Below are positions 1-39,129 of a stretch of 39,129 nucleotides of DNA, piece after piece. Below the pieces are notes generated by a model, which made no database searches, was not told where the DNA came from, and worked only from the letters and a program-made list of their open reading frames with translations. The DNA lies in the sequence record PX309103.1. The stretch is one strand, 5' to 3'. Origin of the DNA: a phage. The stretch's first letter is position 1, and each line of letters begins with the position of its first letter. Position numbers and translations under genes: made by a program.

Positions 1-180
1 TCTCACAGTTCAAGAACCTCAAGTCTCCCCATAGGCCCTCTTTAAGTCCAGACCAAAGGCCCTACCCCCAGTCTATCATAAGGTTGGACCGATGGTCAAG
101 ACTTCAGGTCGACGATAGGTCTAGGCTATGGCTGGAGGTTAGACGATAGGTAGGGGCTATAGGTCTGTCTCTGTGTCTCT
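1..180. repeat. Left direct terminal repeat (180 bp), identical to 38950-39129
   Basis: Read directly: bases 1-180 are identical to the last 180 bases of the window; T7-like genomes carry such terminal redundancy. Confidence 0.95.
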
Positions 181-216
181 ATCTGTATAGTGTTATAGTA
201 TAACATTACGTCCACA

Positions 217-306
217 CCTACAGTCTCACTACCTACAGTCATTGACTCCTGCTGTACCTACAGCCTCAACCATAAGACACCAACGCCTACAGTCAGAGAC
301 CTACAG
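217..306. repeat. Array of 5 CCTACAG heptamers just inside the left terminal repeat
   Basis: CCTACAG at 217, 232, 257, 286 and 300; resembles the short repeat arrays flanking T7 terminal repeats. Confidence 0.7.
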
Positions 307-556
307 TTAATAGACACACAGCTATAGACTTAAGGTCAAAGACATGTTAGTCAAAGACTATCCTCTTACACCATGAGGCCGACGATAGCTTAATCGATAT
401 TATTTAAATAACATATTGACTATAGGTCCAGACTATGGCCTAATAGCTTCCGTCAACACGACACGGCAACAACCGGATAGTGAAGACGCCGGGTCATCCC
501 GGTTAAGTAGACAGCCTGATAAGTCATACGAACAACAGGCAGATGACAGAAAGTAG

Positions 557-586
557 TTGACAAGATGTAACGATAAGATGTAAGCT
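557..586 (+). promoter_or_regulatory. Candidate host sigma70 early promoter (TTGACA-N18-TAAGCT)
   Basis: TTGACA at 557-562 and TAAGCT at 581-586; position matches T7 A-promoters. A second weaker candidate has TTGACT at 416-421 after an AT-rich stretch. Pattern match only. Confidence 0.3.
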
Positions 587-775
587 GTACCACATCGAAA
601 CAACGGTGATGACCAACACTGAAATGGTCTACCTGAAGTCCTCTGACTGAAGGGAATGCTCTTTAACAATCTGGATAAACTCTTAATGTGCGCCGATAGC
701 GACTAACTACAGGGTCTTTGAGTCTACATCTGAAGGCCCTGACTGATAGTCACTAACAACTGAGAGGATATAACT

Positions 776-1285
776 ATGGAACGTAACGCTAACGCATACT
801 ATGAGCTGCTGGCTGCAACCGTTGAGCTGTTCAATGAGCGTATTCAGTACGACGAAATAGCTGAAGGCGATGACTACAGCGATGCGCTGCATGAGGTCGT
901 AGACGGTCAGGTCCCGCACTATTACCACGAGATTTTCACGGTGATGGCTGCTGATGGCATAGACCACGAGTTTGAGGACTCTGGGCTGATGCCTGAGACC
1001 AAGAACGTAACGCGTATACTACAAGCTCGCATCTATGAGGCACTTTATAACGATGTGTCTAATAGCTCTGAGGTGGTCTGGTTTGAGGCTGAAGAGAGCG
1101 ACGAAGAGGATGAATATTGGGTAGTTGACACTAGAACAGGCGAGATAATTGAGCAAGCTGTATCACTTTACGAGGCTACTGCATGTGCAAAAGAACTCTA
1201 TGAGGAAGGTTTTCACATGCAGGTCGAAGACATCAACGATAACGTAGTGTTCGACCCTGCGGCTGCTGAGGAGGATTGCGAGTGA
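776..1285 (+). CDS. ocr: Ocr-like anti-restriction DNA-mimic protein (T7 gp0.3 family) with C-terminal extension
   Basis: 169 aa, very acidic; the segment VPHYYHEIFTVMAADGIDHEFEDSGLMPETKNVTRILQARIYEAL matches recalled T7 Ocr; GAGGA RBS; first gene after the early promoter region. Confidence 0.85.
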   Translation: MERNANAYYELLAATVELFNERIQYDEIAEGDDYSDALHEVVDGQVPHYYHEIFTVMAADGIDHEFEDSGLMPETKNVTRILQARIYEALYNDVSNSSEVVWFEAEESDEEDEYWVVDTRTGEIIEQAVSLYEATACAKELYEEGFHMQVEDINDNVVFDPAAAEEDCE

Positions 1286-1442
1286 TAGTAACTTATGGTC
1301 TCTGCCAGCACCACGTCACCATAAGCCGGGCGTTGGTCAAAACCGGGCAGTTAAACCACGAGGAGGCCATGCGTCTCTTGAAAGTGGTCTACAGGAGACG
1401 CAAGCGCATGCACGATAGTTTACACACTGAGGACAAGTAAAC

Positions 1443-1574
1443 ATGTATCAGATAACTTATAGCAGTGAACAGGCATTCTACGAGGGGTGCTACGAGCTGA
1501 TGAAGCGTGGGGCTTGCTGGTGGGCTGACTGTAAGCAAGATGACCACTGTATCGGTGGAAGTGTAACCGTGTAA
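1443..1574 (+). CDS. Small Cys-rich early protein (43 aa), hypothetical
   Basis: ORF MYQITYSSEQAFYEGCYELMKRGACWWADCKQDDHCIGGSVTV with GAGGA upstream; below the ORF-track size cutoff. Confidence 0.4.
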   Translation: MYQITYSSEQAFYEGCYELMKRGACWWADCKQDDHCIGGSVTV

Positions 1575-1655
1575 GGCCTAGCTGAGTGATAGACGAGAGG
1601 TCATCGACTGATAGGTGGCCTCAAAGATTACCACTTAAATTGATAGGAGTTAACT

Positions 1656-1823
1656 ATGAAATTTACAGGCATAGCACTTTACGTAACGATTATTATGGCG
1701 TGGCTGACTGCGGTATTCACTGATGGGAACGCATTACGACTAGGCTGGATGGCAGTGGATATTATCTTCTCTCCGGTAGGGGTCGTGCGGGGCATCTTGA
1801 TGTGGTTTGGATTGGCGGGATAA
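1656..1823 (+). CDS. Small hydrophobic early protein (55 aa), hypothetical
   Basis: ORF MKFTGIALYVTIIMAWLTAVFTDGNALRLGWMAVDIIFSPVGVVRGILMWFGLAG with TAGGAG RBS; predicted transmembrane character. Confidence 0.45.
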   Translation: MKFTGIALYVTIIMAWLTAVFTDGNALRLGWMAVDIIFSPVGVVRGILMWFGLAG

Positions 1824-1912
1824 ACTATGAGTGTGGGATATTTGGTATGCCTGTCTCCGGTCATCTTTCTGATAGCTTGGGGGATATACGATTGTATTAA
1901 ACGGAAATCACT

Positions 1913-2110
1913 ATGAGTATCGCACTATTGATAGCCATAGGCTATGGACTTATCGCCTACGTGCTGGTGAGAGACATCAACAAAGCGCGTAAAGTCTACA
2001 AATTAAACTATGTACGTCTGGGTCGCTGGACTGTACGTCAACCTAACGGACGATTCCTGCGCAATTTAGCGAACGTCTGGGATATAGCAACTCTTGGGAG
2101 CAAACTGTAA
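1913..2110 (+). CDS. Hypothetical early membrane protein (65 aa)
   Basis: ORF with hydrophobic N-terminus; + strand, packed between early genes. Confidence 0.5.
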   Translation: MSIALLIAIGYGLIAYVLVRDINKARKVYKLNYVRLGRWTVRQPNGRFLRNLANVWDIATLGSKL

Positions 2111-2436
2111 TGAACAAGTCATACGGGATTAATCTGGTACACTCTATGGACGCAGAAATGAACATGTTAAGCCTACTGGCTACCGGGTATCGTCACGGAA
2201 CGTCAAGTCACACCGCACGTCAACAGCAGGAGCGGGACCGTGTACTACAGGCGCGACTCCGGGCAGAGGGCCATAAGTCCGAACTGATGTGTCTGGCGTA
2301 TGGCGGACGACCGATCACTGACGATGGTAAACTTTTAGTCTCAGGCTGGAAGGCGATAGACCAACGGTCAACCATCAAGCACACGACTCACGGTGACTTC
2401 AGCCATCTCCACGCTAACCCACTGATATGCAAGTAA
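2110..2436 (+). CDS. Hypothetical early protein (108 aa) at the T7 0.6/0.7 position
   Basis: ORF start overlaps the preceding stop (TAATG); I recognise no known domain. Confidence 0.5.
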   Translation: MNKSYGINLVHSMDAEMNMLSLLATGYRHGTSSHTARQQQERDRVLQARLRAEGHKSELMCLAYGGRPITDDGKLLVSGWKAIDQRSTIKHTTHGDFSHLHANPLICK

Positions 2437-2441
2437 TTCTG

Positions 2442-2464
2442 ACTTAACTATCACTATAGGACTC
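2442..2464 (+). promoter_or_regulatory. Phage RNAP promoter upstream of gene 1 (TTAACTATCACTATAGGACT)
   Basis: Matches the in-genome consensus TAAACTATCACTATAGG found 11 times. Confidence 0.7.
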
Positions 2465-5516: not shown

Positions 5517-5541
5517 ACCCTAAACTATCACTATAGGATTA
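5517..5541 (+). promoter_or_regulatory. Phage RNAP promoter (phi1.1-like)
   Basis: TAAACTATCACTATAGGATT. Confidence 0.8.
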
Positions 5542-5546
5542 GACTC

Positions 5547-5573
5547 AAGGTCATGACTCAAAGTCGTGGCCTT
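5547..5573 (+). promoter_or_regulatory. Conserved hairpin, RNase III-site-like (R1.1 position)
   Basis: AAGGUCAUGAC / GUCGUGGCCUU 11-bp stem with G-U pairs and UCAAA loop; one of 3 copies of the same element. Confidence 0.6.
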
Positions 5574-5611
5574 CATGATTAACCCTAACTCATTCAATCA
5601 GGAGCTACACC

Positions 5612-7293: not shown

Positions 7294-7554
7294 ATGTCTA
7301 AGAACTTAATGTTCAACCGTTATACCGATACCTTCCACCTGTCCAACAACCCGTTCGCTTGCATTAAGCGCAACGAGAAGCTGGGCTACTTCGGGAAGGC
7401 CGTTAAGTTATCACCTACAGTATTCGCTCTGATTACTCCGAGCAAAGCGGAGGAGGCTCGCCAGAAGCGTGAGACCAACGTACCTGTGGTCTACACTAAG
7501 TGGCCTCGCGTTCGCCTGTTCGTTGAGTTCGTGAAGGAGGTATTCAATGACTAA
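7294..7554 (+). CDS. Hypothetical protein (86 aa), gp1.6-position
   Basis: ORF with AAGGAG RBS directly downstream of a phage promoter. Confidence 0.55.
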   Translation: MSKNLMFNRYTDTFHLSNNPFACIKRNEKLGYFGKAVKLSPTVFALITPSKAEEARQKRETNVPVVYTKWPRVRLFVEFVKEVFND

Positions 7555-22433: not shown

Positions 22434-24790
22434 TGCCGCTTATTACGCAAAGCATAAAAAATCTTAAGGGTGGCATTAGCCAACAGCCTGACATACTGAG
22501 GTTCTCAGACCAAGGCGAGTCACAGGTTAACTGCTGGTCATCCGAGAGTGATGGCCTCCAGAAGCGCCCACCTACAGTCTTCAAGCGACGTCTTAACATC
22601 GACGTTGGGAGCAACCCTAAGTTCCACCTGATTAACCGTGACGAGCATGAGCAGTATTACATCGTGTTCAATGGGTCCAACATTCAGGTAGTTGACTTGA
22701 GTGGTAATCAATACTCAGTGTCAGGTGCGGTAGACTACGTTAAGTCCTCCAACCCACGAGATGACATCCGTGTCGTTACCGTGGCAGACTATACGTTCGT
22801 CGTTAACCGTAAGGTTGTCGTCAAAGGTGGAAGCGAGAAGTCACACTCTGGTTATAACCGCAAAGCACGAGCTTTAATTAACCTGCGTGGTGGACAGTAT
22901 GGTCGAACCCTTAAGGTGGGAATCAACGGTGGCGTTAAGGTCTCGCATAAGCTACCAGCAGGTAATGATGCCGAGAATGACCCGCCTAAGGTGGACGCTC
23001 AGGCCATTGGTGCAGCTCTGAGAGACCTTCTTGTTGCTTCCTATCCTACCTTCACGTTTGACCTTGGGTCTGGCTTCCTGCTAATCACAGCTCCTTCAGG
23101 GACCGACATTAACTCAGTGGAGACGGAGGATGGCTACGCTAACCAGCTAATAAGTCCAGTCCTAGACACTGTGCAGACAATCTCTAAACTACCTCTTGCC
23201 GCTCCTAATGGGTATATCATTAAGATTCAAGGTGAAACAAACAGTAGCGCCGATGAATACTACGTGATGTATGACTCCAACACTAAGACGTGGAAGGAGA
23301 CAGTGGAGCCGGGAGTTGTCACTGGGTTCGATAGCACCACAATGCCACACGCTCTGGTACGACAATCTGATGGCTCCTTTGAGTTCAAGACTCTGGATTG
23401 GTCCAAGCGTGGTTCTGGTAACGATGACACAAACCCTATGCCTAGCTTCGTGGATGCTGCGATTAATGATGTGTTCTTCTACAGGAACAGGCTTGGGTTC
23501 TTGTCGGGTGAGAACGTAATCATGAGCCGTTCAGCCAGCTACTTTTCGTTCTTCCCTAAGAGTGTGGCGACACTGAGTGATGATGATCCTATTGATGTAG
23601 CTGTAAGCCACCCTCGAATCTCAATCCTTAAGTATGCCGTTCCGTTTAGCGAGCAGCTACTACTTTGGTCGGATGAGGTTCAGTTCGTGATGACAAGCTC
23701 TGGGGTCCTTACCTCGAAGTCTATCCAGCTTGATGTAGGCTCAGAGTTTGCCTTAGGCGACAATGCCAGACCGTTCGCTGTAGGACGCTCAGTCTTCTTC
23801 TCAGCTCCTCGTGGGTCATTCACCAGCATTAAGCGATACTTCGCTGTAGCTGATGTGTCTGATGTGAAGGATGCTGATGATACAACCGGTCACGTATTGT
23901 CCTACATCCCTAACGGGGTGTTTGATATTCAAGGTACAGGGACTGAGAACTACATCTGCGTCAACTCTACAGGTGCATACAACAGTATCTACATCTACAA
24001 GTTCTTGTTTAAGGACGGCGTACAGCTTCAAGCCTCTTGGTCACACTGGGAGTTCCCTAAAGATGATAAGATTCTGGCGTCTGCTTCTATTGGCTCTACC
24101 ATGTTCATCGTTCGGCAGCATCAAGGAGGGGTAGACATTGAGCACCTTAAGTTCATCAAGGAGGCAACTGACTTCCCGTCAGAGCCATATAGACTACACA
24201 TTGACTCCAAGGTGTCTATGGTAATTCCAATTGGCTCATATAATGCTGACACCTATAAGACTACGGTTGACATTGGTGCTGCTTATGGTGGCAACGCTCC
24301 GTCTCCCGGTCGGTACTATCTGATTGACAGTCAGGGTGCTTATGTGGACCTTGGGGACTTGACCAGTATCTCTACTGTGATTACCCTCAACGGCGATTGG
24401 TCAGGACGTACAGTGTTCATCGGACGGCCCTATCTGATGTCCTACAAGTTCTCACGGTTCCTGATTAAGATTGAAGATGATAGTGGCACTCAGTCTGAAG
24501 ACACTGGTCGTCTACAGCTTCGTCGGGCTTGGGTCAACTACAAGGACACTGGCGCTCTGAGACTCATTGTCAGAAACGGTGAGCGGGAGTTCGTGAATAC
24601 CTTCAACGGGTACACCCTTGGTCAGCAAACCATCGGTACTACAAACATTGGTGACGGGCAGTATCGATTCGCTATGAATGGTAACGCATTAACCACGAGT
24701 CTAACCTTAGAGTCCGACTATCCTACCCCAGTGTCCATCGTTGGGTGTGGCTGGGAGGCATCATACGCTAAGAAAGCTCGTTCAGTCTAA
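22433..24790 (+). CDS. Tail tubular protein B (gp12 family)
   Basis: 785 aa, in synteny with T7 gene 12. Confidence 0.9.
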   Translation: MPLITQSIKNLKGGISQQPDILRFSDQGESQVNCWSSESDGLQKRPPTVFKRRLNIDVGSNPKFHLINRDEHEQYYIVFNGSNIQVVDLSGNQYSVSGAVDYVKSSNPRDDIRVVTVADYTFVVNRKVVVKGGSEKSHSGYNRKARALINLRGGQYGRTLKVGINGGVKVSHKLPAGNDAENDPPKVDAQAIGAALRDLLVASYPTFTFDLGSGFLLITAPSGTDINSVETEDGYANQLISPVLDTVQTISKLPLAAPNGYIIKIQGETNSSADEYYVMYDSNTKTWKETVEPGVVTGFDSTTMPHALVRQSDGSFEFKTLDWSKRGSGNDDTNPMPSFVDAAINDVFFYRNRLGFLSGENVIMSRSASYFSFFPKSVATLSDDDPIDVAVSHPRISILKYAVPFSEQLLLWSDEVQFVMTSSGVLTSKSIQLDVGSEFALGDNARPFAVGRSVFFSAPRGSFTSIKRYFAVADVSDVKDADDTTGHVLSYIPNGVFDIQGTGTENYICVNSTGAYNSIYIYKFLFKDGVQLQASWSHWEFPKDDKILASASIGSTMFIVRQHQGGVDIEHLKFIKEATDFPSEPYRLHIDSKVSMVIPIGSYNADTYKTTVDIGAAYGGNAPSPGRYYLIDSQGAYVDLGDLTSISTVITLNGDWSGRTVFIGRPYLMSYKFSRFLIKIEDDSGTQSEDTGRLQLRRAWVNYKDTGALRLIVRNGEREFVNTFNGYTLGQQTIGTTNIGDGQYRFAMNGNALTTSLTLESDYPTPVSIVGCGWEASYAKKARSV

Positions 24791-35489: not shown

Positions 35490-35684
35490 ATGATTGAGTT
35501 AGACTTCAAGAATGAGGTCCTTAAAGCCTCTCCTATCGTCGGGACCGCTGCGGCTGATGGTGCCAGTCGGTTCTTCTTTGGACTTACACTGAACGAATGG
35601 TTCTACGTTGCAGCTATCGCGTACACCGTTGTCCAGATTGGTGTGCTAGTCTACAAAACGATTAAAGGAGGTGGTAAAACATGA
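35490..35684 (+). CDS. Holin (gp17.5 family)
   Basis: 64 aa; FFGLTLNEWFYVAAIAYTVVQIG matches T7 gp17.5. Confidence 0.88.
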   Translation: MIELDFKNEVLKASPIVGTAAADGASRFFFGLTLNEWFYVAAIAYTVVQIGVLVYKTIKGGGKT

Positions 35685-35944
35685 CGCAGATGGACTTAGA
35701 GAAGTTCCTCTTGATGCTTGATACTGAGCGTGCTCGACTTATGCTGCAAGACTTGCGGGATGACACTAAGCGTTCACCTCAGCTCTATAACGCCATTGAG
35801 AAGCTGCTTGCTCGTCACAACTTTGTGTTAAGTAAGGTGTCTATGGACGAGAAGACGCTGGCTGATATGGAGGCCCTGAACGCAGAGTACGATAAGGTGC
35901 TTTCAGCGACTGAGGATAATGACACAGGGTATGGTGTTCAATAA
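35681..35944 (+). CDS. Terminase small subunit / DNA maturation protein A (gp18 family)
   Basis: RSPQLYNAIEKLLARH matches T7 gp18. Confidence 0.88.
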   Translation: MTQMDLEKFLLMLDTERARLMLQDLRDDTKRSPQLYNAIEKLLARHNFVLSKVSMDEKTLADMEALNAEYDKVLSATEDNDTGYGVQ

Positions 35945-35955
35945 GTGTTAGACTC

Positions 35956-35982
35956 AAGGTCATTACTATATGTAGTGGCCTT
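35956..35982 (+). promoter_or_regulatory. Conserved hairpin, RNase III-site-like (R18.5 position)
   Basis: AAGGUCAUUAC / GUAGUGGCCUU stem with UAUAU loop; third copy of the conserved element. Confidence 0.6.
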
Positions 35983-36045
35983 TATGGTTAACACTAACTA
36001 GTGGAGGCGACTCTACGTGAAATCTGATAAACCGGGAGGGCAACT

Positions 36046-36495
36046 ATGCTCGAATTTTTAAAGAGAGCGGCTCCGTGGTTACTTGCAGCAGTGATGTTTG
36101 CTGGTGGCTACCACACCGCTAACAATAAGTGGGAGGCTAAGGTCAATGCAGAATACACCTCGAATCTTAAGGCATCGGAGGATACAAGGCTTGCTGTCCA
36201 AGCTGAAGTCAACAAAGTGTCCAAACGGTTCCAAGACGAAATGTCCTCGCTGGAAGGCAGCACTGATAGGATTATTGCTGACCTTCAGTCTGACAATAAG
36301 CGGCTGCTCATCCGAGTCAAACCTACGAGTGGAACCACGCAAAATGACGGTCGATGCTTCATTGATGGCTACGCCGAACTTGACGAACGAGATGCTAAAC
36401 GTCTTATCGCCATCGGAGTGAAAGGAGACAAGTGGATTAAGGCCCTTCAAGACACTGTGAGAGCCTTACAGCAAGAGAAGGAGGTGACGCATTGA
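36046..36495 (+). CDS. i-spanin (Rz-like, gp18.5 family)
   Basis: 149 aa; N-terminal TM segment; [21 protein letters not shown] and [10 protein letters not shown] match T7 gp18.5. Confidence 0.88.
36146..36421 (+). CDS. o-spanin (Rz1-like lipoprotein, gp18.7 family), embedded in the +1 frame of the i-spanin gene
   Basis: Signal peptide plus lipobox ([19 protein letters not shown]); GGGAGG RBS 9 nt upstream of ATG 36146; exact start uncertain. Confidence 0.65.
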   Translation: MQNTPRILRHRRIQGLLSKLKSTKCPNGSKTKCPRWKAALIGLLLTFSLTISGCSSESNLRVEPRKMTVDASLMATPNLTNEMLNVLSPSE

Positions 36496-38255
36496 GTAAA
36501 GACTTAGTGGCGCGTCAGGCGCTAATGACTGCCCGTATGAAGGCAGACTTCGTGTTCTTCCTGTTCGTCCTGTGGAAAGCTCTGTCACTCCCGGTCCCGA
36601 CTCGATGTCAGATTGACATGGCGAAGAAACTATCGGCTGGGGACAACAGGCGTTTCATCCTACAGGCGTTCCGTGGTATCGGGAAGTCCTTCATTACGTG
36701 TGCATTCGTGGTCTGGAAACTATGGAATAACCCAGACTTGAAGTTCATGATTGTGTCGGCCTCAAAGGAACGAGCCGATGCGAACTCCATCTTCATCAAG
36801 CGAATCATCGACCTCATGCCTCAGCTTCAGGAACTCAAACCTAAGCAGGGTCAGCGAGATGCGGTTATCAGCTTCGACGTTGGACCAGCCAAGCCAGACC
36901 ACTCACCTTCGGTTAAGTCCGTTGGTATCACTGGTCAGTTGACTGGTAGTCGTGCTGACCTCCTGATTGCCGATGACGTGGAGGTTCCAAACAACTCAGC
37001 GACTCAGGCTGCACGAGACCGTCTGTCAGAGCTTGTAAAAGAGTTCGACGCTATCCTGAAGCCGGGAGGTACAATCATCTATCTGGGTACTCCTCAGAAC
37101 GAGATGACCTTGTATCGTGAGCTGGAAGGCCGTGGATACACCACTACCATCTGGCCCGCTCGCTACCCACGCGATAAGAAGGACTGGCAGTCTTACGGCG
37201 ACCGTCTGGCACCGATGCTTCAGGCAGAGCTTGAAGAGGACCCTGAGTCCTTCTACTGGCGTCCGACCGATGAAGTACGATTCGATGATACGGACCTGAA
37301 GGAACGTGAGCTGTCCTATGGTAAAGCTGGCTTCGCTCTACAGTTCATGCTTAACCCTAACCTGAGTGATGCTGAGAAGTACCCTCTGAAGCTCCGTGAC
37401 CTTATCGTAGCCGACTTGGACCCAGCGTCTAGCCCAATGGTATACCAATGGCTTCCTAACCCTCAGAACAAGCGTGAGGACGTTCCTAACGTTGGACTCA
37501 TGGGTGACTCATACCACACGTATCAGACTGTAGGTTCTGCCTTCAGTTCGTACACCCAGAAGATTCTAGTCATTGACCCTAGTGGTCGTGGTAAGGATGA
37601 AACTGGTTATGCGGTACTGTACCAGCTAAACGGCTACATCTTCGCTATGGAAGTTGGCGGTATGCGAGGTGGCTATGAAGACTCTACGCTGGAAGCCTTG
37701 GCTAAGATTGGTCGTAAGTGGAAGGTCAACGAATACGTCATTGAGGGTAACTTCGGTGATGGTATGTACCTTGAGCTATTCAAGCCTGTAGCTTCCCGTA
37801 TTCATCCTGCTGCTGTAACTGAAGTGAAGAGTAAGGGTCAGAAGGAACTCCGCATCTGTGACGTTCTGGAGCCTATCATGGGGTCTCACCGACTTATCGT
37901 TAACGCTGCTGCTATCGTCCAAGATTACCAGTCTGCCTCTGATAAGGATGGTGTTCGTAACCCTATCTACTCTCTCTTCTACCAGATGACACGTATCTCT
38001 CGTGAACGTGGAGCATTGGCACACGATGACCGACTTGATGCGCTGGCTATCGGTGTACAGTTCTTCGTTGAGTCTATGGCGAAGGATGCCAACAAAGGCG
38101 AACGTGAAGTCACTGAGGAGTGGCTGGAAGAACAGATGGAGAACCCACGGAAAGGATTCGAGTCCATCCACACGGAGTTCTGGGACAATGGGGTCCGGGT
38201 AACTCACAATACGGACGACGAGCTAGGACTAGGGTCATACGTTACGTTTCACTAG
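36492..38255 (+). CDS. Terminase large subunit / DNA maturation protein B (gp19 family), TTG start
   Basis: 587 aa; very strong T7 gp19 similarity ([62 protein letters not shown]); the only in-frame start is TTG with AAGGAGG 8 nt upstream. Confidence 0.95.
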
Positions 38256-38350
38256 CTGAATGAATAACTATAGGCGAAAACTGAATTAATAAGCAGTTAG
38301 TAACCTATAGTTACTACCAGTCTAACCTACTGTTTTATAAGGGGTTTGGA

Positions 38351-38373
38351 CTTAACTATCACTATAGGGAAGA
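38351..38373 (+). promoter_or_regulatory. Phage RNAP promoter near right end (phiOR-like)
   Basis: TTAACTATCACTATAGGGAAG. Confidence 0.85.
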
Positions 38374-38551
38374 CCCCCGGTTACTTATAGTATTACTGTA
38401 GTGAATATACATATGCAGACTTTATGCAAGACCTTAGGAGGCAGACTCCGAGTTCTTACCTAAGGCTTGCACCGATGGACGGAGGGTGATATTAATCATA
38501 ATCCCTCCAATACAGATAGTAAAGACCATAGATACAGGAGGTATGTAGCAT

Positions 38552-38710
38552 ATGGCAAAGACCAAAGCTGTACTTAAAGCTCTGGCGACCAATCGAGCTA
38601 CATACAGGTTTCTTGCTTCTGTTCTACTTGCTGCTGGCGTTACTGCTGGAAGTCAGTGGGTCGGGTGGGTCGAGACTCTCGTATGTTCTCTGGTGTCTCA
38701 GTGTAATTAA
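38552..38710 (+). CDS. gp19.5-position small membrane protein (52 aa)
   Basis: ORF MAKTKAVLKALATNRATYRFLASVLLAAGV... with AGGAGG RBS. Confidence 0.55.
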   Translation: MAKTKAVLKALATNRATYRFLASVLLAAGVTAGSQWVGWVETLVCSLVSQCN

Positions 38711-38743
38711 CGCAATCATGGTAACGATTCATGAGAGGAAGAC

Positions 38744-38786
38744 CTAAGGTCAGTACGTGGATAAAGACTCACTGTACTGACCTTAG
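38744..38786 (+). promoter_or_regulatory. Perfect 13-bp inverted repeat hairpin downstream of gene 19.5
   Basis: CTAAGGTCAGTAC (38744-38756), 17-nt loop, GTACTGACCTTAG (38774-38786); shares the AAGGUCA 5' arm with the other hairpins. Confidence 0.6.
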
Positions 38787-38871
38787 CTACTGTAGTCAAG
38801 GACTTTAGGTAACACCTTAATAGAAGCTCACTTAGGGTCATCCTACTTATTGGTCCATCCTAGTGTCGCCT

Positions 38872-38910
38872 GACCTACGGTCCTTGACCTACAGTGGCTG
38901 TGACCTACAG
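38872..38910. repeat. Array of 3 GACCTAC(A/G)G repeats just inside the right terminal repeat
   Basis: Copies at 38872, 38886 and 38902; counterpart of the left-end CCTACAG array. Confidence 0.6.
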
Positions 38911-38949
38911 TAGTGACGATGAGTTTTGGACCAAAAGTTTGAGACCACA

Positions 38950-39129
38950 TCTCACAGTTCAAGAACCTCAAGTCTCCCCATAGGCCCTCTTTAAGTCCAG
39001 ACCAAAGGCCCTACCCCCAGTCTATCATAAGGTTGGACCGATGGTCAAGACTTCAGGTCGACGATAGGTCTAGGCTATGGCTGGAGGTTAGACGATAGGT
39101 AGGGGCTATAGGTCTGTCTCTGTGTCTCT
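38950..39129. repeat. Right direct terminal repeat (180 bp), identical to 1-180
   Basis: Read directly from sequence. Confidence 0.95.

What the first reader, a model, noticed from the sequence alone, without database searches (positions are those of the whole stretch)
217..306. Heptamer arrays (CCTACAG) just inside both terminal repeats
Five CCTACAG copies at 15-29 bp spacing lie inside the left repeat, and three GACCTAC(A/G)G copies (38872-38910) lie inside the right repeat. T7 carries analogous short-repeat arrays at the same positions, thought to act in concatemer processing and packaging. The heptamer here differs from the T7 one as I recall it, so it could be a lineage-specific packaging signal.
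Basis: partly seen in the sequence, partly recalled or inferred. Interest (0 to 1): 0.45.

Follow-up and report, generated by a model that had tools for sequence, protein, structure and literature searches.

The report
K1F-type heptamer arrays flanking terminal repeat
The clustered CCTACAG copies are real and strongly conserved: they are the K1F-group version of the short-repeat arrays that sit on both sides of the terminal repeat in T7-like phages, a long-known feature whose function is still unproven.

Summary
The window is a complete K1F-like (Kayfunavirus) phage genome with 180-bp direct terminal repeats (1-180, 38950-39129). Five exact CCTACAG copies lie at 217-306 and three GACCTACRG copies at 38872-38910, all on the + strand. 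They sit just inboard of the repeats, not inside them. Five copies in 90 bp never occurred in 1,500 random genomes.

The conserved unit is really 9-10 nt, A-CCTACAG-T-(C). All 14 other K1F-group genomes examined (hosts from seven genera) carry the same motif at the same two places, with variable copy number (3-7) and divergent spacers. T7, T3, K11, Berlin, gh-1 and SP6 have their own CC-rich heptamers directly after the repeat and a conserved ATCTGT pause site.

So this is the K1F-lineage counterpart of the arrays I recall as T7's SRL/SRR: an ordinary new member of a known kind.

Function was not tested here, and I found no experiment on it in the held literature. My best inference (about 0.4) is an iteron-like binding array for the phage packaging and maturation machinery at the concatemer junction. 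Structured RNA or DNA, coding sequence and a plain tandem repeat are excluded. Interest is low to moderate.

The parts
1..180 (+). Left direct terminal repeat (DTR). It begins TCTCACAG, as in T7.
   Evidence: 100% identical to 38950-39129; a single TCTCAYAG at the repeat start in all 16 junctions.
181..187 (+). ATCTGTA directly after the repeat. It is the counterpart of the T7 concatemer-junction class II pause/termination site (ATCTGTT).
   Evidence: ATCTGT abuts the repeat end in all 16 junctions; the same holds in K11, Berlin, gh-1 and SP6. K11's record annotates 180-188 as the concatemeric junction. Motif description from bioRxiv 10.64898/2026.02.12.705533.
216..225 (+). Left array copy L1, ACCTACAGTC
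231..240 (+). Left array copy L2, ACCTACAGTC
256..265 (+). Left array copy L3, ACCTACAGCC
270..276 (+). Degenerate array member CCATAAG. The CCATAAG/CCATAGG/CCATCGG variants are interleaved in relatives.
285..294 (+). Left array copy L4, GCCTACAGTC
299..308 (+). Left array copy L5, ACCTACAGTT
38872..38882 (+). Right array copy R1, GACCTACGGTC. Invariant in 13 Kayfunavirus junctions.
38886..38896 (+). Right array copy R2, GACCTACAGTG. The core ACCTACAGT is invariant in 13 junctions.
38902..38912 (+). Right array copy R3, GACCTACAGTA. This copy varies in relatives (CCTAAGG, CCTACGG, ACTGCAG).
38917..38949 (+). Near-invariant 33-bp block CGATGAGTTTTGGACCAAAAGTTTGAGACCACA abutting the right repeat. 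Inferred right-end cleavage signal.
   Evidence: identical in 12 of 13 junctions, with 4 differences in Cronobacter phage GW1.
38950..39129 (+). Right direct terminal repeat
38353..38370 (+). Phage-RNA-polymerase promoter consensus (phiOR position), TAACTATCACTATAGGGA. It would drive transcription rightward through the right array and the repeat.
   Evidence: perfect consensus match; repeat family D2. Positional analogy with T7, T3 and K11 phiOR.
35681..35944 (+). Gene 18, terminase small subunit. Candidate reader of the arrays (inferred).
   Evidence: PF11123, E 5.9e-12; at least 96.6% identical across listed Kayfunavirus-type phages; 45% to T7, 50% to K11.
36492..38255 (+). Gene 19, terminase large subunit (ATPase and nuclease)
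   Evidence: PF22530, E 5.2e-38; 580 of 588 positions (stop included) identical to MopsHU1.

Best explanation
The two arrays are the Kayfunavirus (K1F-group) counterparts of the short-repeat arrays that bracket the single terminal repeat at the concatemer junction of T7-like phages. I recall these as SRL and SRR in T7.

In replicating DNA the order is: phiOR promoter, right array (3 copies), 33-bp conserved block, terminal repeat, ATCTGT pause site, left array (5-6 copies), early host promoters.

The most likely mechanism is inferred, not shown. Each 9-10-bp unit A-CCTACAG-T-(C) would be a binding site, iteron-like, for a phage-encoded component of the DNA maturation and packaging machinery. 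The small terminase gp18, with gp19, is the best candidate. Multivalent binding on both sides of the repeat would help assemble or position the complex that cuts at the two repeat boundaries and duplicates the repeat. It would act together with RNA polymerase paused at ATCTGT.

Shown here: the elements exist, are non-random, share one orientation, are conserved as a motif while spacers and copy number drift, use the same motif on left and right, and change motif between genera.

Inferred: that a protein reads them, which protein, and that the process is packaging.
For: **Identity (confidence about 0.9)**
- The window is a complete T7-like genome closest to K1F-group phages, with 180-bp repeats.
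- T7 and T3 have CCTAAAG (T3 also CCTGTAG) arrays at exactly the same two positions.
- K11, Berlin, gh-1 and SP6 have their own heptamer arrays directly after repeat + ATCTGT.

**Selection on the motif**
- CCTACAG is the top 7-mer after the repeat in 13 of 13 Kayfunavirus junctions (58 copies). The flanking A (58/60) and T (59/60) were not part of the search pattern yet are nearly invariant, while other flanking positions are at most about 58%.
- R1 and R2 are invariant while the sequence upstream of them has indels and substitutions.
- Copy number is 3-7 and spacings are 14-16 bp or multiples of that.

**A phage-encoded reader rather than a host one**
- The same motif occurs in phages of Escherichia, Salmonella, Shigella, Cronobacter and Morganella (one search lists hits from Citrobacter and Enterobacter phages too, but their arrays were not inspected).
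- Three coliphages use different motifs: T7 and T3 CCTAAAG, K1F CCTACAG.

**Link to the packaging module**
- gp18 is at least 96.6% identical and gp19 about 99% identical among phages with this motif, even where the left-end DNA is only about 71% identical. gp18 drops to 45-50% identity in genera with other motifs.
- T3 and T7 share the heptamer, and their gp18 proteins are 93% identical and interchangeable in vitro (PMC3276506).
- gp18 is said to recognise PacB and gp19 to cut at PacC (PMC9860248).

**Not something else**
- No fold: z = +0.33.
- No Rfam family.
- No tandem repeat by TRF.
- No plausible ORF.
Against: - No experiment or binding data for any phage was found in the held literature.
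- From memory, unverified: T3/T7 deletion studies (Chung & Hinkle 1990; Hashimoto & Fujisawa 1992) place the terminase-binding site pacB within or next to the repeat, which could make the arrays accessory or dispensable.
- T7 and K11 gp18 look about 70% identical by eye in the alignment (the tool gave only 45% and 50% identity to the window's gp18), yet their dominant heptamers differ: CCTAAAG against ACCTGAG. T3 and T7 share the heptamer but show packaging specificity attributed to gp19. The heptamer is therefore not a simple specificity code.
- The covariation of gp18 and motif is confounded by phylogeny.
- The two arrays sit on opposite sides of their respective cut sites but in the same orientation. 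That is not what two independent, equivalent nuclease-positioning sites would predict.
- Copy number is not fixed.
Confidence: 0.42

Rival explanations
1. The arrays have no sequence-specific function. They would be slippage- or recombination-prone filler next to the repeat boundaries, a by-product of frequent nicking, end repair and unequal exchange at the concatemer junction, kept alike by duplication and gene conversion.
For: - Arrays expand as heptamer-plus-spacer units: five perfect 16-bp units in Salmonella phage KE05 and 15-bp units in vB_EcoP_F.
- Copy number and spacers vary freely.
- R3 is replaced in several genomes.
Against: - The 9-10-bp core is nearly invariant across 14 genomes whose spacers have diverged beyond alignment. 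This includes two flanking bases that were not selected by the search.
- R1 and R2 are invariant next to a highly variable flank.
- The same architecture persists in seven genera and two subfamilies, each with its own motif.
- Left and right arrays keep the same motif although exchange between them would delete the repeat.
Confidence: 0.15
2. The arrays are transcription-linked. They would be weak promoter-like or pause-modulating sites for the phage or host RNA polymerase, tuning read-through or pausing at the junction or binding host polymerase at the entering left end.
For: - They lie directly downstream of the ATCTGT class II pause site, and the right array lies downstream of phiOR.
- Adjacent right-array units form a sigma-70-like TTGACC-16-TACAGT.
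- Spacers such as TCTCACTA resemble the phage promoter core.
- T7's record places the leftward host promoter A0 at 224, inside its left array.
Against: - Promoter-like hits are not above shuffle expectation: 1 against 1.4 on the left, and 4 against 1.6 +/- 1.4 on the right.
- T7 and T3 polymerases have different promoter specificities but share the same heptamer.
- Phages of hosts in different genera share the motif.
- The first left copy is 36 bp or more past the pause site.
Confidence: 0.13
3. The arrays act in replication or concatemer formation. They would be primase start sites, or barriers to exonuclease resection or branch migration, that define how much of the repeat becomes single-stranded for end-to-end annealing or repeat duplication.
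For: - 48 of 60 left-array units end in GTC, the minimal T7-type primase recognition triplet (the triplet is from my own knowledge).
- The position exactly at both repeat boundaries fits a role in delimiting the repeat.
Against: - CAGTC is not one of the productive T7 primase pentamers (GGGTC, TGGTC, GTGTC; own knowledge).
- The GTC is on the + strand, which is not the lagging-strand template for a fork running into the left end.
- T7's own units mostly lack GTC on that strand.
- No strand-specific structure is predicted.
Confidence: 0.1

Closest known systems
T7 SRL/SRR short-repeat arrays (names and the Dunn & Studier 1983 citation are from my own knowledge; the sequence facts were verified here in NC_001604 and NC_003298)
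   Same: - Direct 7-bp CC-rich repeats, all in one orientation.
- They sit immediately on the genome-internal side of both terminal repeats, so they bracket the single repeat at the concatemer junction.
- The left array follows the ATCTGT pause site and the right array follows phiOR and gene 19.5.
- Spacers and copy number are irregular.
- The same motif is used on both sides.
   Different: - The motif is CCTACAG, extended to ACCTACAGTC, instead of CCTAAAG.
- There are fewer copies: 5-6 and 3, against 12 and about 7 in T7.
- CCATAAG-type variants are interleaved.
- There is no phiOL-type phage promoter between the array and the early host promoters. The first match with 3 or fewer mismatches is at 2445.
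Terminase recognition-site arrays of other phages, such as phage P1 pac (hexamer repeats on both sides of the cut) and lambda cosB R sites (own knowledge, not tested here)
   Same: Several short, like-oriented sequence elements are clustered next to a terminase cut site. In P1 they lie on both sides of it. They act, or here are proposed to act, as multivalent binding sites for the small terminase.
   Different: - No binding has been shown for the T7-group arrays.
- There are two cut sites 180 bp apart, with repeat duplication between them.
- There is no sequence similarity.
- gp18 (PF11123, 87 aa) is unrelated in sequence to lambda Nu1 or P1 PacA as far as I know.
Plasmid and phage origin iterons
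   Same: Short conserved cores are separated by variable spacers at roughly regular spacing (14-16 bp here), in direct orientation, with variable copy number.
   Different: No origin function is indicated. The secondary origins of T7-likes are associated with the phiOR and phiOL promoters (for phiOR), not with these arrays.

Membership tests
T7-type short-repeat arrays flanking the terminal repeat (SRL/SRR) | The host genome is a T7-like phage with short direct terminal repeats. | tested here: met
   The 180-bp repeat is 100% identical at both ends. The left end is about 93% identical to K1F-group phages. gp18 and gp19 families match. There are 9 phage-promoter consensus sites, all on the + strand.
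T7-type short-repeat arrays flanking the terminal repeat (SRL/SRR) | Multiple copies of a roughly 7-bp motif in direct orientation, clustered far beyond chance. | tested here: met
   5 and 3 copies, all on the + strand. A cluster of 5 was never reached in 1,500 random genomes.
T7-type short-repeat arrays flanking the terminal repeat (SRL/SRR) | The arrays lie just internal to both repeats, the left one directly after the ATCTGT junction site. | tested here: met
   Offsets are +36 to +126 from the repeat end, and -78 to -39 from the start of the right repeat. ATCTGTA is at 181-187. T7 and T3 have the same layout.
T7-type short-repeat arrays flanking the terminal repeat (SRL/SRR) | Conserved in relatives at the same positions. 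| tested here: met
   13 Kayfunavirus junctions plus MopsHU1. Analogous arrays occur in K11, Berlin, gh-1 and SP6.
T7-type short-repeat arrays flanking the terminal repeat (SRL/SRR) | The motif sequence equals the T7 heptamer CCTAAAG. | tested here: not met
   The motif is CCTACAG, matching 6 of 7 bases. No CCTAAAG occurs in either array. Motif identity is genus-specific and does not define the kind, since K11, Berlin, gh-1 and SP6 also differ.
Terminase (small-subunit) binding-site array / packaging signal | Sequence-specific binding by the terminase. | not testable with these tools
   Only indirect support: the gp18 class and the motif class coincide, and this is confounded by phylogeny.
Terminase (small-subunit) binding-site array / packaging signal | Required in cis for cutting or packaging. 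| not testable with these tools
   No deletion data were found in the held literature. Packaging plasmids are described only as phiOR origin plus concatemer junction.
Simple tandem repeat (minisatellite) | Head-to-tail copies of one unit at about 70% identity or more. | tested here: not met
   TRF finds nothing in 150-450 at minimum score 30. Spacers differ in length and sequence. Some relatives, such as KE05, do have true 16-bp tandem units.
Structured RNA or DNA element | Stable or conserved secondary structure, or a match to a known RNA family. | tested here: not met
   The fold of 181-330 has z = +0.33, and 127 of 200 shuffles fold as well. There are 0 Rfam matches in the window.

The most novel reading that the evidence does not exclude
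The arrays, rather than sequences inside the terminal repeat, could be the genus-specific recognition code read by the small terminase gp18. In that case one 9-10-bp iteron type per gp18 class would set which concatemers a T7-like phage can mature. Swapping CCTACAG for CCTAAAG, together with gene 18, would re-target packaging between K1F-type and T7-type phages and phagemids.
Probability: 0.2. Interest if true: 0.5.

Novelty: new member of a known kind. Interest (0 to 1): 0.25.

Why it matters
As far as I know, the short-repeat arrays next to the T7 terminal repeat have been visible since the genome was sequenced without a demonstrated function. This window adds no new kind of element.

The comparison does sharpen the question in three ways:
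- The unit is a 9-10-bp core under strong constraint, with free spacers.
- The same motif is kept on both sides of the repeat.
- The motif switches between genera together with the packaging module and independently of the host.

That makes a phage-encoded reader the natural hypothesis, and it gives precise sites to mutate. In practice, anyone building K1F-type transducing particles or phagemids should include both arrays, roughly 38350-39129 plus 181-310, until they are shown to be dispensable.

Tried and rejected
- **IMG/VR pattern scan.** Scanning for three CCTACAG copies 5-30 bp apart returned at least 120 loci. Going by their contig sizes and their 54-79-bp match lengths, most looked unrelated to T7-like phages, but I did not open them. 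The scan was not used.
- **Literature.** Searches for SRL/SRR, CCTAAAG, heptamer, pacB and T7 packaging signal found no paper in the held library that describes or tests these arrays. The K1F and phiYeO3-12 genome papers are not held. The supplement of PMC9860248 is not held. The PHAGEPACK preprint tested four packaging fragments but gives no coordinates in its text.
- **Tandem-repeat, fold, Rfam and ORF explanations** were all negative.
- **Genome-wide role of the heptamer.** There are 17 interior copies against about 5.6 expected under an order-3 model, but 15.8 under an order-5 model, so the excess follows from its sub-words. K11's motif shows no interior excess. Not pursued.
- **Primase-site idea.** Rejected on strand and pentamer grounds (see the third rival explanation).
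- **Sigma-70 promoter idea.** Hits are at chance level.
- **gp18 and motif covariation.** The pattern is compatible, but T7 and K11 gp18 are fairly similar while their motifs differ, and phylogeny confounds the comparison.

Full report
**What the window is.** The first 180 bases are repeated exactly at 38950-39129. The left 900 bases match K1F-group phages (genus Kayfunavirus, Studiervirinae) at about 93% identity, and many of those records start at the same base. The genome begins TCTCACAG as T7 does, and ATCTGTA follows the repeat directly. Genes 18, 19 and 19.5 and a perfect phage-promoter consensus at 38353-38370 lie before the right repeat. The window is therefore a complete, terminally redundant genome of a T7-like phage.

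**The observation.** Exact CCTACAG copies start at 217, 232, 257, 286 and 300. GACCTACGG is at 38872, and GACCTACAG at 38886 and 38902. All are on the + strand. The spacings are 15, 25, 29 and 14 bp. The copies are not inside the repeats. They lie 36 bp past the left repeat and end 39 bp before the right one.

- Genome-wide there are 24 copies, against 6.4 +/- 2.4 in shuffles.
- Five copies within 100 bp never occurred in 1,500 Markov random genomes, where the maximum was 3.
- A cluster of four or more copies of any heptamer arose in only 1 of 200 random genomes.

**What the unit really is.** I extracted the concatemer-junction sequence (right flank, repeat, left flank) from K1F, T7, T3 and 12 further records. 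Each has exactly one TCTCAYAG, at the repeat start, and an ATCTGT abutting the repeat end.

- In the 13 Kayfunavirus junctions, an unbiased 7-mer count of the 150 bp after the repeat puts CCTACAG first in every genome, with 58 copies in total.
- The base before the heptamer is A in 58 of 60 units. The base after is T in 59 of 60, and the next is C in 48 of 60. Other flanking positions are no better than about 58%. The conserved core is thus A-CCTACAG-T-(C).
- Copy number on the left ranges from 3 to 7.
- Spacings cluster at 14-16 bp, or at two or three times that. The gaps are often filled by degenerate units (CCATAAG, CCATAGG, CCATCGG), such as the CCATAAG at 270-276 here.
- Some relatives have true tandem duplications of unit plus spacer, so arrays grow by duplication. 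In this window the spacers are too different for Tandem Repeats Finder to report anything.
- On the right side, the first two units (GACCTACGGTC, ACCTACAGT) are invariant in all 13 genomes although the sequence just upstream carries indels and many substitutions. The third unit varies.
- Morganella phage MopsHU1 also has four CCTACAGTC units on the left and the same right array.

**Comparison with other T7-like phages.** T7 has eight CCTAAAG plus four one-off variants after its repeat, and several before the right repeat. T3 and a Klebsiella Teetrevirus have CCTAAAG plus CCTGTAG on both sides. Directly after repeat + ATCTGT:

| Phage | Dominant motif |
|---|---|
| K11 | ACCTGAG, also present before its right repeat |
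| Berlin | CCTTATG / CCTTAAG, followed by a second array of GACTACTTAG |
| gh-1 | CCATAGG |
| SP6 (a different subfamily) | CCTTAGT |

The architecture is general in the family. The motif is genus-specific, and the left and right arrays of one genome share it. From my own knowledge, the T7 arrays were described with the genome sequence (Dunn & Studier 1983) as SRL and SRR. I could not retrieve that paper, but the sequence facts are verified above. The window's arrays are the K1F-lineage members of this known kind.

**What they are not.**

- The left array region does not fold as a single strand: z = +0.33, and 127 of 200 shuffles fold as well.
- No Rfam family matches anywhere in the window.
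- The only ORF over the region is a spurious 38-codon one on the minus strand. Gene 0.3 starts at 776.
- Sigma-70-like hits are at chance level.

**How they most likely work.** The pattern is a short, strongly constrained core with free spacers and copy number, one orientation, and the same motif on both sides of the repeat. That is the signature of a protein-binding array.

Phages of Escherichia, Salmonella, Shigella, Cronobacter and Morganella share the motif. Meanwhile the coliphages T7 and T3 on one hand and K1F on the other use different ones.

The motif travels with the packaging module.

- gp18 is at least 96.6% identical among Kayfunavirus-type phages. In MopsHU1, gp18 is 85 of 87 residues identical and gp19 is 580 of 588 positions identical.
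- That holds for SFPH2 even though its left-end DNA is only about 71% identical to the window.
- gp18 falls to 45-50% identity in T7 and K11.

The literature I could read says the following.

- gp18 recognises PacB and gp19 cuts at PacC (PMC9860248).
- T3 and T7 gp18, which share the CCTAAAG motif, are 93% identical and interchangeable in vitro, while specificity between T3 and T7 is attributed to gp19 (PMC3276506).
- The junction site is a class II pause/terminator with a conserved 7-base motif (bioRxiv 10.64898/2026.02.12.705533).
- Packaging plasmids need the phiOR origin plus the junction.

I therefore favour a model in which the arrays are multivalent docking sites for the gp18/gp19 complex on both flanks of the repeat. 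They would help position the two boundary cuts and the repeat duplication, next to polymerase paused at ATCTGTA. This is inference. Nothing here shows binding or a requirement in cis.

**Weak points.**

- From memory, unverified, older deletion work places the T3/T7 terminase-binding site within or beside the repeat, so the arrays may be accessory.
- T7 and K11 gp18 look about 70% identical by eye in the alignment, yet their dominant motifs differ.
- The covariation of gp18 and motif is confounded by phylogeny.
- The two arrays lie on opposite sides of their cut sites but in the same orientation.

The rivals remain open at lower probability: neutral slippage-prone filler, a transcription-linked element, and a replication- or resection-linked element. 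They are treated separately in the rival explanations.

**Verdict.** It is an ordinary member of a known kind with a lineage-specific motif. Its function is unproven here, and I found no test of it in the family. A specialist would not be surprised, though the comparative data define clean mutational targets.

Noticed in passing
window 38744-38786: A strong inverted repeat, CTAAGGTCAGTAC...GTACTGACCTTAG, lies between gene 19.5 and the right array. Its folding energy is -14.1 kcal/mol, z = -4.0, and 0 of 200 shuffles fold as well. The right arm (ACTGACCTTAG) is invariant across 13 relatives, while the left arm lies mostly outside the aligned stretch and the loop comes in two versions. It may be an RNase III or terminator-like site, or relate to the hairpin intermediate proposed for T7 right-end processing (the latter from my own memory).
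   Followed up: partly
window 38917-38949: The 33-bp block CGATGAGTTTTGGACCAAAAGTTTGAGACCACA, immediately before the right repeat, is identical in 12 of 13 Kayfunavirus junctions. It contains the palindrome TTTTGG-A-CCAAAA. It is the most conserved non-coding stretch at the junction and a better candidate for the right-end cleavage signal than the heptamers.
   Followed up: partly
window 181-187: ATCTGT abuts the repeat end in all 16 junctions compared and in K11, Berlin, gh-1 and SP6. In Kayfunavirus, Berlin and gh-1 the seventh base is A (ATCTGTA), not the T described as strictly conserved for the T7 class II signal.
   Followed up: partly
window 38787-38795: CTACTGTAG is a 9-bp palindrome whose minus strand reads ACTACAGTA, an 8-of-9 match to the array core in inverted orientation. 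It is invariant in 13 relatives, inside a conserved block about 80 bp upstream of the right array.
   Followed up: partly
window interior, e.g. 7413-7421 (+), 22570-22578 (+), 37527-37535 (-): CCTACAG is also over-represented inside the genome on both strands: 17 copies against about 5.6 under an order-3 model, though 15.8 under an order-5 model. There are also three exact interior ACCTACAGT 9-mers, where I estimate about 0.3 expected from a uniform-base calculation. K11's own motif shows no such interior excess.
   Followed up: partly
window 70-99 (- strand), and its copy at 39019-39048: A leftward sigma-70-like promoter lies inside the terminal repeat: TTGACC, 18 nt, TAGACT, with a TG extension (9 of 12 matches). 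Its position recalls the leftward A0 promoter annotated inside the T3 repeat.
   Followed up: no
window 1-2444: There is no phage-polymerase promoter (3 or fewer mismatches to TAACTATCACTATAGGGA) between the left array and the early region; the first is at 2445. T7, T3 and K11 all have an annotated phiOL just after their left arrays.
   Followed up: partly
window 5539-5590 and 35948-35999: Two 52-nt segments are 85% identical (repeat family D3, TTAGACTCAAGGTCAT...TTAACCCTAACT), one in the early-middle region and one just after gene 18. The one at 5539-5590 starts at the last base of a phage-promoter-like site at 5522-5539.
   Followed up: no
L140 (Yersinia phage Berlin) about 408-540: After its CCTTATG/CCTTAAG array, Berlin carries a second, much more regular array of nine or more GACTACTTAG-type units. 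The record annotates it only as a repeat_region.
   Followed up: no
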